Part shown: positions 48,829 to 54,951 of the stretch, one piece after another | Layout: each line of letters begins with the position of its first letter | Numbering within the stretch: position 1 is the stretch's first letter | From: Escherichia coli | GTDB lineage: Bacteria > Pseudomonadota > Gammaproteobacteria > Enterobacterales > Enterobacteriaceae | Length of the DNA: 64,000 nt | Assembly: GCF_003991155.1 (NCBI RefSeq) | Contig: NZ_CP031294.1 | Reading direction: 5' to 3' (one strand) | Notes under the pieces: model-generated | Databases searched by the model: none | What the model was told of the DNA's origin: nothing | The model's input: only the letters and a program-made list of their open reading frames with translations | Program-made: the position numbers and the translations under genes

Positions 48829-51800
48829 TTAGTTACGTTGAGTGTTTGGGTTGAGTGATCCGCCAGGGCGTTTCTCTTGAGCGATAGTCTCAAGCGCGAT
48901 TGCTTTCATCCGTTGAGCGGCATTGTTCCATATGCTTTCTGTATCGCCGGATTCAGTTGTGCTACCGTCACTATGGACGTTGATCTCAATTGATACAGGA
49001 GAAAGAACATTTCCTCCTCCACTCATACCATCGGTACTGAGCGTTACAGGGATTGTTCGACCATCAGGCAATGGAACATACGCCTCATTCATATCGCCTT
49101 CCCCAAACAACGCCAATTGAGGTGAGTTGGCGATACCGCCTTTCTGGTATGCCCGGAGCGGGATCACGCCGTCTTTTCCGAATATGCCACCATTTGCAAA
49201 CTTCGGAATTGCAGGAATACCATTCGTGCCATCGGCAGCAGAACTGGTCAGATTGTTGAACCCGGAAGTTGAGCCAGAAGAACCGGACATCAATCCATCG
49301 AATCCACCACCAGCCCATACTGAAACCAAACCAGATGCAACTGTCGCGCCGAAATTCAACCACTTATTACCAGAGCCGGAAGCATTAGCTCCAAGCATTG
49401 CAAACGCGGCAGACAGAGCGCCGGTAACAGAGCTGAGGTTCTGCATCGAGAAGATGGAGTCCTTCACTGCTTTTGTCTCAGCATCTTTGGCTTCGGTGCT
49501 ATTAAATAGCCCTGATACCCAGCTACCAATCGCATTTGTTGCTGTGCCAATTGCGCTGGTGGTCTGCTGTGTCGTTTGCCCCAATCCAGTTACCGAACTG
49601 GACGTCTCCTTCGTGGCTTCTCCTACCGACTTGTCGCCATTAACAGTGTTGCTTATGCGCACACCTTGATTGGCAACTGCGGAAGCAACCCCGGTGAGCA
49701 AATTACCACTCTGTGAACTACCAGCTGCGGTGGTTCCCATCCCCAACATGTTCATTAGAGGCAGCGTGATCTGCGACTTCACGACCATATTGGTGATATC
49801 TTTCAAAATGGACTGAGATAGGCTGGAGAAGCTCATCTTCCCGTTAATAACGAAATCAGTCAGGACATCAGTTAAGCCACTAAACAAATCAGTCCAGGTG
49901 CTTTCGATCTGCTCTGCCAGATTTTCGTATTCCAGTGCCAACTTCTGCGTCGCAGTCCCCGTCTCTTTAATAAGCGCGGTATTGCCAGCAGCAATCAGTT
50001 GATTGATTTTCTTTGTATAAAGCGCCACAACTTTAGGATCAGACGCCTTATCACGAAGTTCTATCAACGCTTTGAGATTGCGGTTGTAGGTGTCTTCGAA
50101 ATCAGCAACTTTCTCTTCGCGAGACGGCGTATAGCCAGCACTAATAATGGAATCCGCCTCCGGTGCCCAAGTGGAGATCATCTGCTCAACATTGCGGCGA
50201 TTAAACATCTCACGATATTCAGGTGTCGCATTTTTGAGGTCTTCAAGACGTTTTTTCGCCTTGTCGATCATCTCTTGAGTGATGAACTCGTTAGGAACCG
50301 CATTAGCCAAATCTGTCAGCGATTTCGTTGTATCGCGAAGAGACTGATCAAACGATACCGTAGCCTTAGAGCTTTCACCCATTTGCCCCATAAGCTGATC
50401 GGCTTTGTCCAGAGCCTTCTGGTATCCGGCTGCCAGTTTCTGTTGCGCTGCCTGTTCCTTCTTGGCCGCACGCTGCGAGGCGTTAGCTGATCGTTGGGCT
50501 GCTTTCTCGGCAGCTGCTGCATCCTGTTCACGAGCTTTAGTAAGTGCGGCAATGGCTGCGGCACGCTCTTCATCGCTCATTTTCTCCAGAGAGCTGGCAC
50601 TGGATGCTTTCTGCAAATTAAGCTGCGTCTTGAGTTGTTTAGGCCCAATAATCGGCTTACCTTCGAAGTCCATCATCGGAGTGCCGTCAGGCAAAGTACG
50701 CTGATAAGTCGCAGAATCCATCTGGTTTCGCATATATTGCGCCAACGCCTTCTGAGCAGCTTTATCAGTTGTACCTAACCCAAGAACAGTCCCCTGGTTT
50801 GACATTACGCCCTTACCAGTTTTGGCCGCGTTATCTCTCTCGAACTCTGCCTGAGTAAGTTCCTGAGCAACGGCTTCCAAATGCTCCTGATAACCACGAA
50901 TACTGCCTTGCAGTTTCTGGATTTGCTCGGTATTGCCATCCTTTTTGGCTTTTTCAAGCTGATCATTAAGAGTCGCGATTTGCTTCTCGGTCGCATTCTT
51001 ACGAGAAGAAAGTGAATCAACCAGTTTTTGCGCAGGCTCCAGATAGCTTTTGTTTACCGTTTCACGTAACGGTGCCAATAGCTTGTTCTTTTCGTCATCT
51101 GAAAGTGAACCGTCATCATTGATTTTCTGGATCTTATCCAGAGCCTCCTGCCGGGCTTTCACGAATGTTGCCGCGAAAATCTGGTTTTCCGCTCGAATTT
51201 TCTCAATCTGAGATTCGGCAGCCTCTTTAGCCAAACGCTTTGCTACAGCGCCGTCACCAAGAGCTATCGTGCCGGTTATCTTTTGATACTCTTCCTGATT
51301 TTTTTTCAGGCGTGCTTCGATGTCAGCCTTCGACTCTTTGTGAGTAATAACACCGGCAGAGTTAGATACGTAATTAACACCCTCACCAGTTTTTAATGCT
51401 CGTTGATCAGCAAGAATCTGCTTTTCGAGCTTTTCTGCGCGGTCGGCCATTTGTGCACGTTTGGCCGCCGTCATCGCCTCTGGTATTTTCCTAATCTCGT
51501 CAACGACCTTTGAAGTTTCGCTGCGGAGCATGGTCATGTACGTGATTAGGCCAGCAACAGCTACAGTGGCAACTGTAAATGCTGCCCCTATAGGGTTTGC
51601 TGCAATGAACGCCGTTAATCCAGCAAAAGCGCCTTTAAGCCCCGTAATCGCCCCACGGATGGCGAAAATAAGAGAGGGGATCGGAGCCAGCCCCATACGT
51701 GCCGCACGATTGAATCGGGTTACTGCTGTAGCGCCGAGGTTAAATGGAGTCTGTATGGCGGTCGCCATCGTGGCAAAGGTGCTAACCATCTGGCTGCCTG

Positions 51801-53421
51801 CGCCAACTACCCCCATGATCCCTGCTCGCATCAGTTTGAACGCAACCATCGCGGCCACGACCTTACCGAGATTAATTACCAGCTCTTGGTTCTTTGCTAA
51901 CCATTGAGCAAGCTGACGCAACCCATCGATTGCCGTCGTTAACCCCGAGCCTAAAGAATTGGCAAACGAAATCCCTTCGGCGCTATTCATGATTGAAGCC
52001 AGTTCTTTCATCCCCTTCGATAGAGAATCCAGATATCCGGCCTGACCAACCCGATCAGCAAATAACGTGAATGACGTCTGAAGTTGCGCCAGCGCACCTG
52101 TGTAGGTTTGCATCATGTCTTTCGCTGCGTTCTCATTCTCCGCACGCAGACCAACAAACATCAGAGACAACGCCTGTTTTGCCTCAACCGTACCGCTGGC
52201 AACGGCTTTAGTCAGTTCCCCCATAGTGATGCCTGCGGCGTCTGCCATTGCCTGCATCGCGTTAGGAACGGCTTCACCTAATTGCTGACGTAGCTCTTCC
52301 ATTGACACAACGCCCTTACCGGACATCTGCTGAACGGCCACAGCCGCACGTTTCAACAGCTCACTATCACCACCAAAACGAGCAACGGAGTCCACCAGCG
52401 CCTTCAGAGAACCATCGGTTGGATCTAAGCCAGCAGAACGAAACTTCACGAAGGAATCTGTTAACGCCTGCATCGCGAACGGCGCATTTTGCGCCATGTC
52501 TACGATGTACTTCATATCATCAGCGGCAGCCTGGCCCGGGTTGGACTTCTCCTTATTCAACCCTCGAAGCATCACCCGCATACGTTCCATTTCGGCCGCA
52601 GCTTCAACAATAGGCTTCTGCCACCCAAACATGATGTCAGTAACCGTTCTGGCTGCATCTCCGATCTCGCCAAGCAGGAAAATGTTGCCACGAAGGCCAG
52701 AGAACATACCTCCTTCGTTACTTTTACCGCTATGGCCAGAAGCGCCGCTACGCCGCCCGCTACCACCATCGCCACTTCCAGATGTACGAACGCGTACCGG
52801 CTTGCTAATCAGTTGCTGACGTCCGATAACTTCGTCCATCTGCTCACGAACCTTTTTCAGTCCCTCGGCAGCCTGACTCGTTGTGACACCCCAATTACTG
52901 AGTCGCTTCGTCGTGGTATTAAGGCGCGTATTCATGCCACTCACGGACGCAGAGGCTTCTTTGGCCTCCGTACCAAAGCGGCTTGCGCTTTTGCTTGCAT
53001 AGGTCGCCCAATCAGAGAAATCATTTAGCTCTGATTGCACTTTACGTAATGACGCGGTGAGTTTATCTACTGAAGAAGTTGTCGTATCGACGCGCTCAAT
53101 CAGGGCTTTAAGACCAGAATTGAGGCTGGTGATGTTGCCACGCATTTTACGCGTAGCATCTGAAGCAAGCTCAAAACCGGCAGCTACATCCTGTAGTTTA
53201 TCTGCCGTAGAATCGAGCTTGCTTTCCAGAACGCCAATGATACGGGCGACCGAACCCAAAGAGCGTTCAAAGGTTTGGATTTTTTGAGCAGGCTTTGTTA
53301 CCTGCTCACCAAATCGAGTAAGCAGTTTCCCCGCACGATCGATTGACGCTGTAAACTGTTTGTCTTCCAGCGACAGGATAAACTCTACGTTTTGTGACAT
53401 TCCCTTGTCATCCTCTGCCAA
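48829..53421 (-). CDS. Tail tape measure protein
   Basis: 1530 aa, extended predicted coiled coil, hydrophobic Gly/Ala-rich internal segment, position after the G/T chaperone genes. Confidence 0.8.
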   Translation of the reverse strand: MAEDDKGMSQNVEFILSLEDKQFTASIDRAGKLLTRFGEQVTKPAQKIQTFERSLGSVARIIGVLESKLDSTADKLQDVAAGFELASDATRKMRGNITSLNSGLKALIERVDTTTSSVDKLTASLRKVQSELNDFSDWATYASKSASRFGTEAKEASASVSGMNTRLNTTTKRLSNWGVTTSQAAEGLKKVREQMDEVIGRQQLISKPVRVRTSGSGDGGSGRRSGASGHSGKSNEGGMFSGLRGNIFLLGEIGDAARTVTDIMFGWQKPIVEAAAEMERMRVMLRGLNKEKSNPGQAAADDMKYIVDMAQNAPFAMQALTDSFVKFRSAGLDPTDGSLKALVDSVARFGGDSELLKRAAVAVQQMSGKGVVSMEELRQQLGEAVPNAMQAMADAAGITMGELTKAVASGTVEAKQALSLMFVGLRAENENAAKDMMQTYTGALAQLQTSFTLFADRVGQAGYLDSLSKGMKELASIMNSAEGISFANSLGSGLTTAIDGLRQLAQWLAKNQELVINLGKVVAAMVAFKLMRAGIMGVVGAGSQMVSTFATMATAIQTPFNLGATAVTRFNRAARMGLAPIPSLIFAIRGAITGLKGAFAGLTAFIAANPIGAAFTVATVAVAGLITYMTMLRSETSKVVDEIRKIPEAMTAAKRAQMADRAEKLEKQILADQRALKTGEGVNYVSNSAGVITHKESKADIEARLKKNQEEYQKITGTIALGDGAVAKRLAKEAAESQIEKIRAENQIFAATFVKARQEALDKIQKINDDGSLSDDEKNKLLAPLRETVNKSYLEPAQKLVDSLSSRKNATEKQIATLNDQLEKAKKDGNTEQIQKLQGSIRGYQEHLEAVAQELTQAEFERDNAAKTGKGVMSNQGTVLGLGTTDKAAQKALAQYMRNQMDSATYQRTLPDGTPMMDFEGKPIIGPKQLKTQLNLQKASSASSLEKMSDEERAAAIAALTKAREQDAAAAEKAAQRSANASQRAAKKEQAAQQKLAAGYQKALDKADQLMGQMGESSKATVSFDQSLRDTTKSLTDLANAVPNEFITQEMIDKAKKRLEDLKNATPEYREMFNRRNVEQMISTWAPEADSIISAGYTPSREEKVADFEDTYNRNLKALIELRDKASDPKVVALYTKKINQLIAAGNTALIKETGTATQKLALEYENLAEQIESTWTDLFSGLTDVLTDFVINGKMSFSSLSQSILKDITNMVVKSQITLPLMNMLGMGTTAAGSSQSGNLLTGVASAVANQGVRISNTVNGDKSVGEATKETSSSVTGLGQTTQQTTSAIGTATNAIGSWVSGLFNSTEAKDAETKAVKDSIFSMQNLSSVTGALSAAFAMLGANASGSGNKWLNFGATVASGLVSVWAGGGFDGLMSGSSGSTSGFNNLTSSAADGTNGIPAIPKFANGGIFGKDGVIPLRAYQKGGIANSPQLALFGEGDMNEAYVPLPDGRTIPVTLSTDGMSGGGNVLSPVSIEINVHSDGSTTESGDTESIWNNAAQRMKAIALETIAQEKRPGGSLNPNTQRN

Positions 53422-53677
53422 ATATTTGCATCAGTTGCTCTTTGGCGTCAGGGTCTGCCTTATCCTGGCTTGGATCGTAGACTTTATCTGTTACGACTGG
53501 TCTTCCAATCCTGAGTTGCAAACCCTCCATGAACGCCTTCACAGCCTCGCCATCCGCCTGGGACGCACGAGCGACTTGTAAGTTGCGGACATCCTCTTCC
53601 GCACGCAGACGGTCTATATTGCGACTGAGCATCCAGAACATCGTGAGAGGAACGTTCAGTAGCTCTAATGGCGACAC
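53408..53677 (-). CDS. Tail assembly chaperone, T-like frame (probable -1 frameshift extension of G)
   Basis: Reading frame is -1 relative to the upstream G-like ORF and stays open back into its 3' end; overlaps the tape measure start. Confidence 0.4.
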   Translation of the reverse strand: MSPLELLNVPLTMFWMLSRNIDRLRAEEDVRNLQVARASQADGEAVKAFMEGLQLRIGRPVVTDKVYDPSQDKADPDAKEQLMQIFGRG

Positions 53678-53757
53678 GGCGTAGTGAGCAACTACACGAC
53701 TGAAATAGAATCCGAGATCTATTGAGACGGTCCTTGTCCCGGATTCATCGCGGGAAA

Positions 53758-54075
53758 TTACTTTGCCCCTTCGCCAGCCGCTTTTTCGTTTTCTTCATCA
53801 ATCACTTCCATAGCGAAGGTGAAGATCTGCTGGAGTTGCGGAACAGTCAGTTTTTCAAGAACTTCGTCAGGTACTGAAGGGATAACCTTACGAACCAGAT
53901 CTGCATAAGCTGTCACTTGCTCAACAGGAGACATGTTCATGAGATCTTTGCCTTCCATCTGCTTGATGGAAACGAACAGACCTACCGTCATTTCAACGAT
54001 GGGATATTCCTGACCGCCAAATTTGATGCTTTTCTTCGGAGGCAGAATGGAATCGAGATCGAGTAATTTGGTCAT
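53758..54075 (-). CDS. Tail assembly chaperone (lambda gpG-like)
   Basis: 105-aa acidic protein immediately downstream of the major tail gene and upstream of the T-like frame. Confidence 0.5.
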   Translation of the reverse strand: MTKLLDLDSILPPKKSIKFGGQEYPIVEMTVGLFVSIKQMEGKDLMNMSPVEQVTAYADLVRKVIPSVPDEVLEKLTVPQLQQIFTFAMEVIDEENEKAAGEGAK

Positions 54076-54130
54076 TGGTTAAAATCCTTTTAAAAGAGAG
54101 GCCCATCCTGAGCCTCTGCTTAATTACTGA

Positions 54131-54913
54131 TTAATCTGCGGGGTTAATCGTTACTGACTTAGTTGCCTTCTTACCACCGCTATTGCTGGTGAAGGAGATA
54201 TTTGTAGAACCCTGCGCCACACCACGTACCAGACCCGTTTGATCTACCGTGGCCTTTTCCTGGTCTTCGGATTCCCAAACACCGGTTTTGTCTGCGGCAT
54301 CAGCTGGAGTGATTTCGGCTGTCAGTTGCACAGTTTCTCCAGCTTTTACGGTTGGAGATTCCGGTGAGATCGACACAGTTTTTACCGGTTTAGGACCGCT
54401 CATTTTGCCCAGAACGCCTTCATCATCCGGGTATGCGCTGAACTGAACAGAGAACACACGAACATCATCAGACTGGTAGGTCATAGTGAAGTTGCCCGCG
54501 GTTGCCGCTTTCGGGATGGTCAACACATAGTCGGTGGTGTCCTGCGGAGTCAGAACCAGCTCCTTCGCCACATCAATCAGGTTAACGCCCTGTGCAGATG
54601 TGATCGTGACAGAGTTGTCATCTTCGCTCAGAGTAGAACCAGGCATCAGGTCAACCATGTTTTGGAGTACAGACTCAGCCAGAGGCGCGGTGATGGTAAT
54701 GTTGCGCCCCTGAACTAATTCGGAAATTACGGTCTGCCCCAACTGATCGACGGTGACTTTCAGCGTTTCAGTGGCTACTTCAACCTGAACACCACCTTTG
54801 GTGTAACCCAAATCCACACCACCAAACGACACCTTACAGGCACCAAGTTTGATGTTTTTTACATGGGTATTAGACATTGATGGAAAACTCCTTTTTCCGT
54901 TAATTCTACGCAT
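54131..54913 (-). CDS. Major tail tube protein with C-terminal Ig-like (Big_2-type) domain
   Basis: Position upstream of G/T; C-terminal segment VSISPESPTVKAGETVQLTAEITPADAADKTGVWESED resembles a bacterial Ig-like domain, as in lambda gpV. Confidence 0.65.
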   Translation of the reverse strand: MRRINGKRSFPSMSNTHVKNIKLGACKVSFGGVDLGYTKGGVQVEVATETLKVTVDQLGQTVISELVQGRNITITAPLAESVLQNMVDLMPGSTLSEDDNSVTITSAQGVNLIDVAKELVLTPQDTTDYVLTIPKAATAGNFTMTYQSDDVRVFSVQFSAYPDDEGVLGKMSGPKPVKTVSISPESPTVKAGETVQLTAEITPADAADKTGVWESEDQEKATVDQTGLVRGVAQGSTNISFTSNSGGKKATKSVTINPAD

Positions 54914-54951
54914 TCATTGCGCTAATAGTAAGTATATACTTACTAATTGAG

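What the first reader, a model, noticed from the sequence alone, without database searches (positions are those of the whole stretch)
53408..54075. Candidate programmed -1 frameshift joining the G-like and T-like tail chaperone frames
The T-like frame is -1 relative to G and remains open back into the last ~12 codons of G. The overlap contains GAAAAAG (G ORF codons GAA-AAA-GCG), where a lysyl-tRNA slip on A-AAA-G is conceivable, although no canonical X-XXY-YYZ heptamer is present.
Basis: partly seen in the sequence, partly recalled or inferred. Interest (0 to 1): 0.35.

Follow-up and report, generated by a model that had tools for sequence, protein, structure and literature searches.

The report
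Tail chaperone frameshift, slip site relocated

Summary
The window is an SSU5-like phage-plasmid, 99.8% identical to Escherichia phage Cyrano. On the minus strand the order is tail tube, G-like (53758-54075), a -1 frame open from 53794 to 53408, then tape measure.

A G-T -1 frameshift is well supported:
- The 28 codons after the G stop have no start codon, yet they are under purifying selection in the -1 frame.
- Candidate internal starts have no Shine-Dalgarno sequence.
- The G model matches tail-assembly-chaperone folds.
- Distant relatives carry canonical heptamers (G GGA AAG, A AAA AAG, G GGA AAC) at the same position.

The proposed slip site GAA-AAA-GCG is refuted as the conserved site. 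In 27 of 89 related loci, including SSU5 and Yersinia pestis pMT1, a -1-frame TGA lies downstream of it. Another 14 loci lack it.

All 89 loci keep NNA-AAG-TAR, the last sense codon plus the stop. These two codons hold the only synonymous positions invariant across five deep lineages. A_AAG is the most shift-prone tetramer in E. coli.

No public record annotates the frameshift. It is an ordinary mechanism in an unannotated family, with a minimal slip site next to the stop codon. No experimental evidence exists.

The parts
53758..54075 (-). G-like tail assembly chaperone ORF (105 aa, stop TAA at 53760-53758); phrog_893
53761..53764 (-). Proposed slip site: in-phase tetramer A_AAG (last base of Ala104 GCA plus Lys105 AAG). 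tRNA-Lys re-pairs from AAG to AAA in the -1 frame.
   Evidence: NNA AAG TAR is invariant in 89/89 related loci and in relatives at 48% and 38% G identity (L090, L091). The third bases of codons 104 and 105 are the only synonymous positions identical in all five deep lineages (1 of 15 four-fold-box columns, 1 of 9 two-fold columns). A_AA.G is the best tetramer in E. coli (PMC4066793).
53758..53760 (-). G stop codon TAA directly 3' of the slip codon; possible pause element (inferred)
   Evidence: The stop is TAA or TAG but always adjacent to the slip codon in the AK/VK-ending clade. In the wider family the commonest arrangement is a slippery dipeptide as the last two residues (GK 19, KK 17, GN 10 of 131).
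53408..53761 (-). T-like -1-frame extension (GTA at 53761-53759 through TGA at 53410-53408; 117 codons). Predicted fusion G(1-105)+VISRDESG...FGRG = 222 aa.
   Evidence: Frame. phrog_1131 covers only the last 84 residues. The first 28 codons have no ATG, GTG or TTG, yet they contain the conserved SIDxGFYFSRV motif and show pN/pS of 0.26-0.6 in this frame.
53781..53787 (-).
   Evidence: It lies upstream of a -1-frame TGA in 27/89 loci and is absent in 14/89.
53773..53773 (-). Third base of Gly101 (GGC here). It is T in SSU5, pMT1 and others, which creates the -1-frame TGA (53773-53771 equivalent) and narrows the usable overlap to 4 codons.
53708..53746 (-). Candidate downstream hairpin: GAAUCCG (53746-53740) pairs with CGGAUUC (53714-53708), 25-nt loop, starting 14 nt after AAG. 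Low confidence as a stimulator.
   Evidence: Present in the MFE fold. It is kept in enterobacterial lineages, with only G-U changes. It is no better than column shuffles, sits on conserved codons, the window fold z-score is only -1.46 (-0.8 for the 63-nt segment), and it is absent in L090.
53677..53679 (-). GTG used as the start of the 89-aa 'hypothetical protein' in the Cyrano annotation; probably not a real start
   Evidence: No Shine-Dalgarno sequence (+0.9 kcal/mol, against -5.4 to -8.2 for the G, TMP and tube starts). Annotated starts differ between records (89, 77, 75 and 74 aa). The first possible start moves between codons 28 and 44 in most SSU5-clade lineages and lies downstream of the conserved SIDxGFYFSRV motif in all but the L006/L081 lineage.
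48829..53400 (-). Tape measure protein gene. ATG at 53400 by homology to Cyrano CYRAN_15; the mechanical ORF list extends it to TTG 53421.
   Evidence: SD -5.8 kcal/mol before ATG 53400.
54131..54877 (-). Major tail (tube) protein with a C-terminal Big_2 Ig-like domain
   Evidence: phrog_1280 at 1e-162 and Big_2 at 6e-26. Annotated start by homology. SD -8.2 kcal/mol.

Best explanation
The G-like and T-like frames are the two parts of a lambda G/GT-type tail assembly chaperone. Most ribosomes translate G (105 aa) and terminate at TAA. A minority slip one nucleotide backwards at the last sense codon. tRNA-Lys(UUU), paired with AAG (53763-53761), re-pairs with the overlapping AAA (53764-53762). 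The next codon read is GUA, and translation continues for 117 codons to give a 222-aa G-T fusion (...GEGAK-VISRDESG...), which ends just inside the tape-measure gene start. By analogy with lambda, the G part would coat the tape measure protein and the T part would recruit the tube protein. The site is a minimal Z_ZZN tetramer (A_AAG), not a heptamer. It looks like a degenerate descendant of the G_GGA_AAG / A_AAA_AAG heptamers that distant members of the same family carry at the same position. Shown here: the frame relationship, the conservation, the coding signature of the start-less stretch, the synonymous-site constraint on A|AAG, and the TAC-like fold. Inferred: that slippage actually happens, its efficiency, whether tRNA-Lys slips in the A site or in the P site while the adjacent stop codon waits for a release factor, and the roles of G and T.
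For: Synteny is tube > G > T(-1) > tape measure. In 89/89 related loci T is in the -1 frame and NNA AAG TAR is invariant; in 27 of them only 4 codons of overlap remain, which pins the site. The same GCA AAG TAA/TAG occurs at 48% and 38% G identity. Distant relatives have canonical sites at the same spot: G GGA AAG TAA (L007, L093), A AAA AAG TAA (L094), G GGA AAC TGA (L095) and A AAA AAG (L096). Of 131 family representatives, 91 have GK, KK or GN in the last 5 residues, against a 4.7% background. The synonymous third bases of codons 104 and 105 are the only ones invariant across five lineages whose pS is about 0.4-0.7. The start-less 28 codons are under purifying selection and contain the conserved SIDxGFYFSRV motif. 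Candidate internal starts have no SD. The G fold matches named tail assembly chaperones. A_AA.G is the most shift-prone tetramer in E. coli, and A_AAG tetramer sites are used by IS1222 and occur in B. subtilis cdd (PMC4066793; PMC5009743).
Against: There is no experimental evidence for a fusion protein in any SSU5-like element. Tetramers alone frameshift near background in E. coli reporters and need a stimulator, and no convincing conserved stimulator was found: the hairpin is 14 nt away and statistically unremarkable, and the upstream SD-like sequences are not conserved. G and T hit no Pfam TAC family directly, and only 3 of 131 relatives hit Phage_TAC_7 weakly. The conserved terminal Lys could in principle also reflect a protein-level constraint, although that would not explain the fixed AAG and NNA third bases.
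Confidence: 0.8

Rival explanations
1. One reading: tRNA-Lys slips -1 on A_AAA within GAA-AAA-GCG (53787-53779), giving a fusion ...EENEK-SGWRRGKVISR...
For: The motif is in phase and inside the 12-codon overlap in this window and in 51/89 loci. A_AA.A is one of six tetramers above background in E. coli.
Against: In 27/89 loci a -1-frame TGA follows it, so a shift there aborts. In 14/89 loci the motif is replaced by GAA GCC GCN. A_AA.A is the weakest functional tetramer and A_AA.G the strongest. The site is not at the family-wide position of the slippery sequence.
Confidence: 0.04
2. There is no frameshift. T is a separate small protein started at an internal codon (for example GTG 53677, as annotated in Cyrano), and the upstream open stretch is fortuitous.
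For: All public records annotate two separate hypothetical proteins. A GTG exists at codon 28 in many lineages.
Against: Annotated starts are inconsistent (74-89 aa). The first possible start moves between codons 28 and 44, and in L005-type loci it is codon 44. No SD precedes any candidate start. The conserved SIDxGFYFSRV motif and purifying selection lie upstream of these starts. The -1 frame relationship and a 3'-terminal slippery motif persist across a family with 253 representative clusters.
Confidence: 0.08
3. Termination-reinitiation: ribosomes finishing G at TAA restart on a nearby non-canonical codon in the -1 frame (ATT at 53758-53756), giving a free full-length T.
For: In this window GTA ATT follows the slip point, and an SD-like AAGGGG lies 7 nt upstream.
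Against: The ATT is not conserved: it is ATA in L003, GAA in L006, GTT in L047 and GTA in L091. The SD-like run is not conserved either.
Confidence: 0.03
4. Transcriptional slippage by RNA polymerase on an A run yields a -1 mRNA subpopulation.
For: A 5-A run (GAAAAAG) exists in the overlap.
Against: Five A's is short for productive slippage (my own knowledge). That run is absent or made useless in 41/89 loci. The conserved site has only three A's.
Confidence: 0.01

Closest known systems
Phage lambda gpG/gpGT programmed -1 frameshift (and the conserved G/GT arrangement of long-tailed dsDNA phages, Xu, Hendrix & Duda 2004; reviewed in PMC5009743)
   Same: Same gene order (tube, G, T, tape measure). 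T is in the -1 frame without its own start, and the slip is near the 3' end of G. The slipping A-site codon is the same (AAG to AAA by tRNA-Lys). G is small, helical and acidic-tailed with a TAC-like fold. Distant relatives of this G family even carry lambda's exact heptamer G_GGA_AAG.
   Different: There is no heptamer here. The preceding codon is GCA (GTA in sister clades), so the upstream tRNA cannot re-pair. The shift codon is the very last sense codon and abuts the stop. There is no detectable sequence homology to Pfam TAC families, and no experimental proof.
A_AAG tetramer (Z_ZZN) -1 frameshift sites: IS1222 G_CGA_AAG and other IS3-family elements, incidental B. subtilis cdd A_CGA_AAG (PMC5009743; PMC4066793)
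   Same: A single-tRNA slip of tRNA-Lys on an in-phase A_AAG, with a non-slippery preceding codon. The host is an enterobacterium, in which one tRNA-Lys(UUU) reads both AAA and AAG.
   Different: Those sites rely on identified stimulators (a pseudoknot or hairpin, or an upstream SD). Here none is established, and the 0-frame stop codon is immediately adjacent. The gene context is a phage tail chaperone, not a transposase.
E. coli dnaX A_AAA_AAG -1 frameshift
   Same: Same slippery Lys codon and the same tRNA. One distant relative of this G family (L094) has A_AAA_AAG followed by a stop.
   Different: dnaX has a full heptamer plus an SD and a hairpin as stimulators, and its shift leads to early termination rather than a long extension.

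Membership tests
Tail assembly chaperone G/GT -1 frameshift (lambda paradigm) | Two consecutive ORFs lie between the major tail (tube) gene and the tape measure gene. | tested here: met
   Tube 54131-54877, G 53758-54075, T frame 53408-53794, TMP 48829-53400.
Tail assembly chaperone G/GT -1 frameshift (lambda paradigm) | The second ORF overlaps the 3' end of the first in another frame and lacks its own start and RBS. | tested here: met
   -1 frame with a 12-codon overlap. No start codon for 28 codons, with variable first starts in relatives. No SD at the candidate starts.
Tail assembly chaperone G/GT -1 frameshift (lambda paradigm) | A canonical X_XXY_YYZ slippery heptamer lies in the overlap. 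| tested here: not met
   There is none in this window (enumeration). Distant relatives do have G_GGA_AAG, A_AAA_AAG or G_GGA_AAC at the homologous position.
Tail assembly chaperone G/GT -1 frameshift (lambda paradigm) | The frame relationship and shift site are conserved across relatives, with a coding signature in the extension. | tested here: met
   89/89 loci. pN/pS of 0.26-0.6 in the start-less stretch. Synonymous-site invariance of A|AAG.
Tail assembly chaperone G/GT -1 frameshift (lambda paradigm) | The G protein belongs to a tail assembly chaperone family or fold. | tested here: inconclusive
Tail assembly chaperone G/GT -1 frameshift (lambda paradigm) | A G-T fusion protein is made at a low fixed ratio and is required for tail assembly. 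| not testable with these tools
   This needs a western blot, mass spectrometry or a reporter, plus genetics.
Z_ZZN tetramer -1 frameshift sites (A_AAG type) | An in-phase A_AAG in which the zero-frame AAG can re-pair as AAA. | tested here: met
   GCA AAG at 53766-53761 in the G frame.
Z_ZZN tetramer -1 frameshift sites (A_AAG type) | A stimulatory element (downstream structure at about 5-9 nt, or an upstream SD-like sequence). | tested here: inconclusive
   The hairpin at +14 nt is conserved but not significant and is confounded by coding. The SD-like AAGGGG or GGTGA is not conserved. The adjacent stop codon is the only invariant neighbour.
Z_ZZN tetramer -1 frameshift sites (A_AAG type) | A measured frameshift above background that depends on the first A. 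| not testable with these tools
   This needs a reporter assay with the GCA>GCC mutant.
   GAAAAAG is phased GAA-AAA-GCG, so G_AAA_AAG would be in the +1 phase.

The most novel reading that the evidence does not exclude
SSU5-like phage-plasmids, including Y. pestis pMT1 and hundreds of E. coli, Klebsiella and Salmonella plasmids, may use a minimal frameshift signal made only of A_AAG plus the adjacent stop codon. On this reading, the pause for release-factor binding at the stop replaces an RNA stimulator and drives a P-site -1 slip of tRNA-Lys. G:GT stoichiometry would then be coupled to termination efficiency or release-factor availability. This would be a natural, evolutionarily stable tetramer-plus-stop -1 recoding site in a phage structural gene, derived from an ancestral heptamer.
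Probability: 0.3. Interest if true: 0.5.

Novelty: new member of a known kind. Interest (0 to 1): 0.3.

Why it matters
The G/GT frameshift is a textbook feature of long-tailed phages. Finding it here mainly corrects annotation: every record examined lists two 'hypothetical proteins', whether phage, PLSDB plasmid or RefSeq E. coli. The homologous G gene is in 796 PLSDB plasmids, and this G-T locus is in 231 of 5,426 complete E. coli genomes. The elements concerned are medically relevant, such as pMT1 of Y. pestis and Klebsiella and Salmonella phage-plasmids.

It is also a clean comparative example of a slippery heptamer decaying to a bare A_AAG tetramer next to a stop codon while the frameshift is apparently retained. 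That is a useful test case for frameshift predictors that require heptamers, and for asking how much stimulation a stop codon can give to -1 slippage.

Tried and rejected
- **Pfam on G and on the -1 ORF:** no family. NCBIfam and PADLOC were not tried.
- **The search for homologous proteins with the 222-aa fusion:** it returned only six odd proteins from indel-laden or chimeric assemblies, and no annotated fusion. This was uninformative.
- **Profile search of the G family against PDB sequences:** only chance-level hits.
- **Downstream RNA structure:** the window fold z-score is -1.46. The alifold and pair counts show a conserved 7-10 bp helix, but with only one-sided G-U changes and no excess over shuffles. 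Per-lineage folds vary. I rejected it as evidence and kept it as a candidate.
- **Upstream SD-like stimulator:** AAGGGG (window), GGTGA (SSU5, L004) and GGAG (L005) are not conserved. Rejected.
- **Apparent 1-nt length difference in some E. coli plasmid hits (680 vs 681 nt):** checked by alignment. There is no indel, only an end-trimmed BLAST alignment.
- **+1 frame:** open for only 18 codons across the G stop. Rejected.
- **ATT reinitiation and transcriptional slippage:** rejected on conservation grounds.
Full report
**What the window is.** The region 53300-54950 is 99.8% identical to Escherichia phage Cyrano and 86% identical to Salmonella phage SSU5. So the window comes from an SSU5-like phage-plasmid. 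The genes lie on the minus strand in this order:
- tail terminator (Phage_tail_terminator_6);
- major tail protein with a Big_2 domain (54131-54877);
- a 105-aa ORF (53758-54075, phrog_893);
- a -1-frame ORF ending at 53408 (phrog_1131);
- the 1,500-aa tape measure gene.

**Check of the observation.**
- The T-like frame is -1 relative to G.
- It is closed by TGA TGA at 53800-53795 and open from 53794 to the TGA at 53410-53408, which is 128 codons and 12 codons of overlap with G.
- GAAAAAG lies at 53787-53781, as GAA-AAA-GCG.
- No in-phase X_XXY_YYZ heptamer exists among the overlap codons (GAA GAA AAC GAA AAA GCG GCT GGC GAA GGG GCA AAG TAA).

**Is T really translated from G?**
- No public record annotates a frameshift. 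Cyrano, SSU5, a Klebsiella phage, pMT1, and Cronobacter, Klebsiella and Aeromonas plasmids all list two hypothetical proteins. So do the E. coli plasmids listed from 231 of 5,426 complete E. coli genomes.
- The annotated 'T' starts disagree: 89, 77, 75 or 74 aa.
- I collected 89 related loci. In most SSU5-clade lineages the first ATG, GTG or TTG in the T frame falls between codons 28 and 44 after the G stop.
- The stretch upstream of these codons encodes a strongly conserved motif, (V/L)SID(L/F)GFYFSRV.
- That start-less stretch evolves under purifying selection in the -1 frame. For example, pN/pS is 0.26-0.30 between the window and the 64-67%-identical Klebsiella lineages, the same as in the rest of T.
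- Candidate internal starts have no Shine-Dalgarno pairing (+0.9, +0.4 and -0.9 kcal/mol). The G, tape-measure and tube starts give -5.4, -5.8 and -8.2 kcal/mol.

The stretch is therefore translated, and the only upstream source of ribosomes in that frame is G.

- In 27 of 89 loci, including SSU5, Y. pestis pMT1, Cronobacter and one Klebsiella lineage, Gly101 is GGT instead of GGC. This makes a -1-frame TGA and leaves only the last four G codons in the overlap. A shift at GAA-AAA-GCG would abort there.
- In 14 further loci the motif is replaced by GAA GCC GCN.
- By contrast, NNA AAG TAR is invariant in all 89 loci: GCA AAG TAA/TAG, GTA AAG TAA/TAG, and GGA AAG TAA in Aeromonas.
- It recurs as GCA AAG TAA and GCA AAG TAG in relatives with only 48% and 38% G identity (L090, L091).
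- Across five deep lineages, whose synonymous sites are close to saturated (pS 0.4-0.7), I checked the synonymous positions of G. Among 15 columns with four-fold-degenerate codons, only codon 104 keeps its third base (A). Among 9 invariant two-fold-codon columns, only Lys105 keeps its third base (G).

That is selection on the nucleotide sequence A|AAG itself, not on the protein.

**The wider family.**
- An exhaustive HMMER search with G found 253 representative clusters of 100-130-aa proteins.
- Of 131 full-length representatives, 91 have GK, KK or GN within the last five residues, against 4.7% of comparable upstream windows. In 46 of them that dipeptide is the very C-terminus.
- In the DNA of six sampled relatives, T is always in the -1 frame. 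The C-terminus carries a canonical heptamer: G GGA AAG TAA (L007, L093), A AAA AAG TAA (L094), G GGA AAC TGA (L095), or A AAA AAG seven codons before the stop (L096).
- The SSU5 clade therefore has a degenerate version of lambda's G_GGA_AAG, in which GGA has become GCA or GTA and only the A_AAG tetramer remains.

**Identity of G.**
- There are no Pfam or PDB sequence hits, and only 3 of 131 relatives weakly hit Phage_TAC_7.
- An AlphaFold model built on the family alignment is confident (pLDDT 87.5; a beta-hairpin followed by four helices).
- In BFVD its best match is a protein named tail assembly chaperone (E 4e-5, TM 0.69), and many further TAC-named proteins are in the top 30.

Fold and synteny support a TAC. 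Sequence-family membership is not shown.

**Mechanism.**
- In E. coli, A_AA.G is by far the most shift-prone Z_ZZN tetramer: 5.6% with a strong pseudoknot, but near background without a stimulator (PMC4066793).
- A_AAG tetramers are used by IS1222 and occur in B. subtilis cdd. E. coli has a single tRNA-Lys for AAA and AAG (PMC5009743).
- The window encodes tRNAs for Ser, Thr, Tyr and Asn but none for Lys.
- The proposed event: tRNA-Lys on AAG re-pairs to AAA one base upstream, and GUA is read next, giving ...GEGAK-VISRDESG... (222 aa).
- The slip could happen with tRNA-Lys in the A site (the classical tetramer model), or in the P site while the adjacent stop codon awaits a release factor. I cannot decide between these.
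- The invariant adjacency of the stop in this clade makes the second attractive, but this is inference.

**Stimulators.**
- A helix GAAUCCG/CGGAUUC (53746-53740 with 53714-53708) is kept in the enterobacterial lineages, with only G-U substitutions.
- It starts 14 nt after AAG, lies on conserved codons, does not beat shuffled controls, and is missing in L090.
- Upstream SD-like runs are not conserved.

So no stimulator is established. This is the main weakness of the model, although lambda-like systems need only a few percent shifting.

**Rivals.**
- Independent initiation of T, reinitiation at ATT, transcriptional slippage and the +1 frame are each contradicted by the conservation data.
It cannot be the selected site.

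**Verdict.**
- The feature is a previously unannotated member of the well-known tail-chaperone frameshift class. Its mildly unusual point is a slip signal that is minimal (a tetramer) and adjacent to the stop codon.
- Interest is modest.

Noticed in passing
window 21251-21808 (minus strand): A cluster of four tRNA genes (Ser-TGA, Thr-TGT, Tyr-GTA, Asn-GTT) is carried by the phage-plasmid. There is no tRNA-Lys.
   Followed up: no
window 53708-53746 (minus strand): A 7-bp inverted repeat, GAATCCG...CGGATTC, overlaps the codons for D-E-S-G and L-G-F of the T extension. It is conserved in enterobacterial relatives, with only G-U-compatible changes. It could be a frameshift stimulator or a by-product of protein conservation.
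   Followed up: partly
window 53400-53421 and 54877-54913 (minus strand): The mechanical longest-ORF starts for the tape measure (TTG 53421) and the tube protein (ATG 54913) are probably wrong. The starts annotated in Cyrano (ATG 53400 and ATG 54877) have good Shine-Dalgarno pairing, and ATG 54913 has none. The T stop (53408-53410) lies 8 nt upstream of the tape-measure ATG.
   Followed up: partly
proteins P0001-P0006: The word-indexed protein search returned only aberrant predicted proteins: G or T fragments fused to unrelated sequence or carrying indels. One example is P0001, which switches frame exactly at the GAAAAAG run. These are most likely assembly or sequencing errors at homopolymers, not evidence of slippage.
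   Followed up: no
related loci: NZ_CP009490.1 (Y. pestis pMT1), PLSDB, RefSeq E. coli: The same G/T locus is present in 796 PLSDB plasmids (Klebsiella 340, Escherichia 198, Enterobacter 90, Yersinia 62, Salmonella 49) and on plasmids of 231 of 5,426 complete E. coli genomes. It is never on a chromosome, and wherever annotation was seen it is listed as hypothetical proteins.
   Followed up: partly
L005 / L083-L088 (Klebsiella lineage): In this lineage the -1 frame is open for 32 codons into G and the linker has one extra Glu (VISREEESG). The first start codon in the T frame is only at codon 44, the most extreme case of a start-less T.
   Followed up: no
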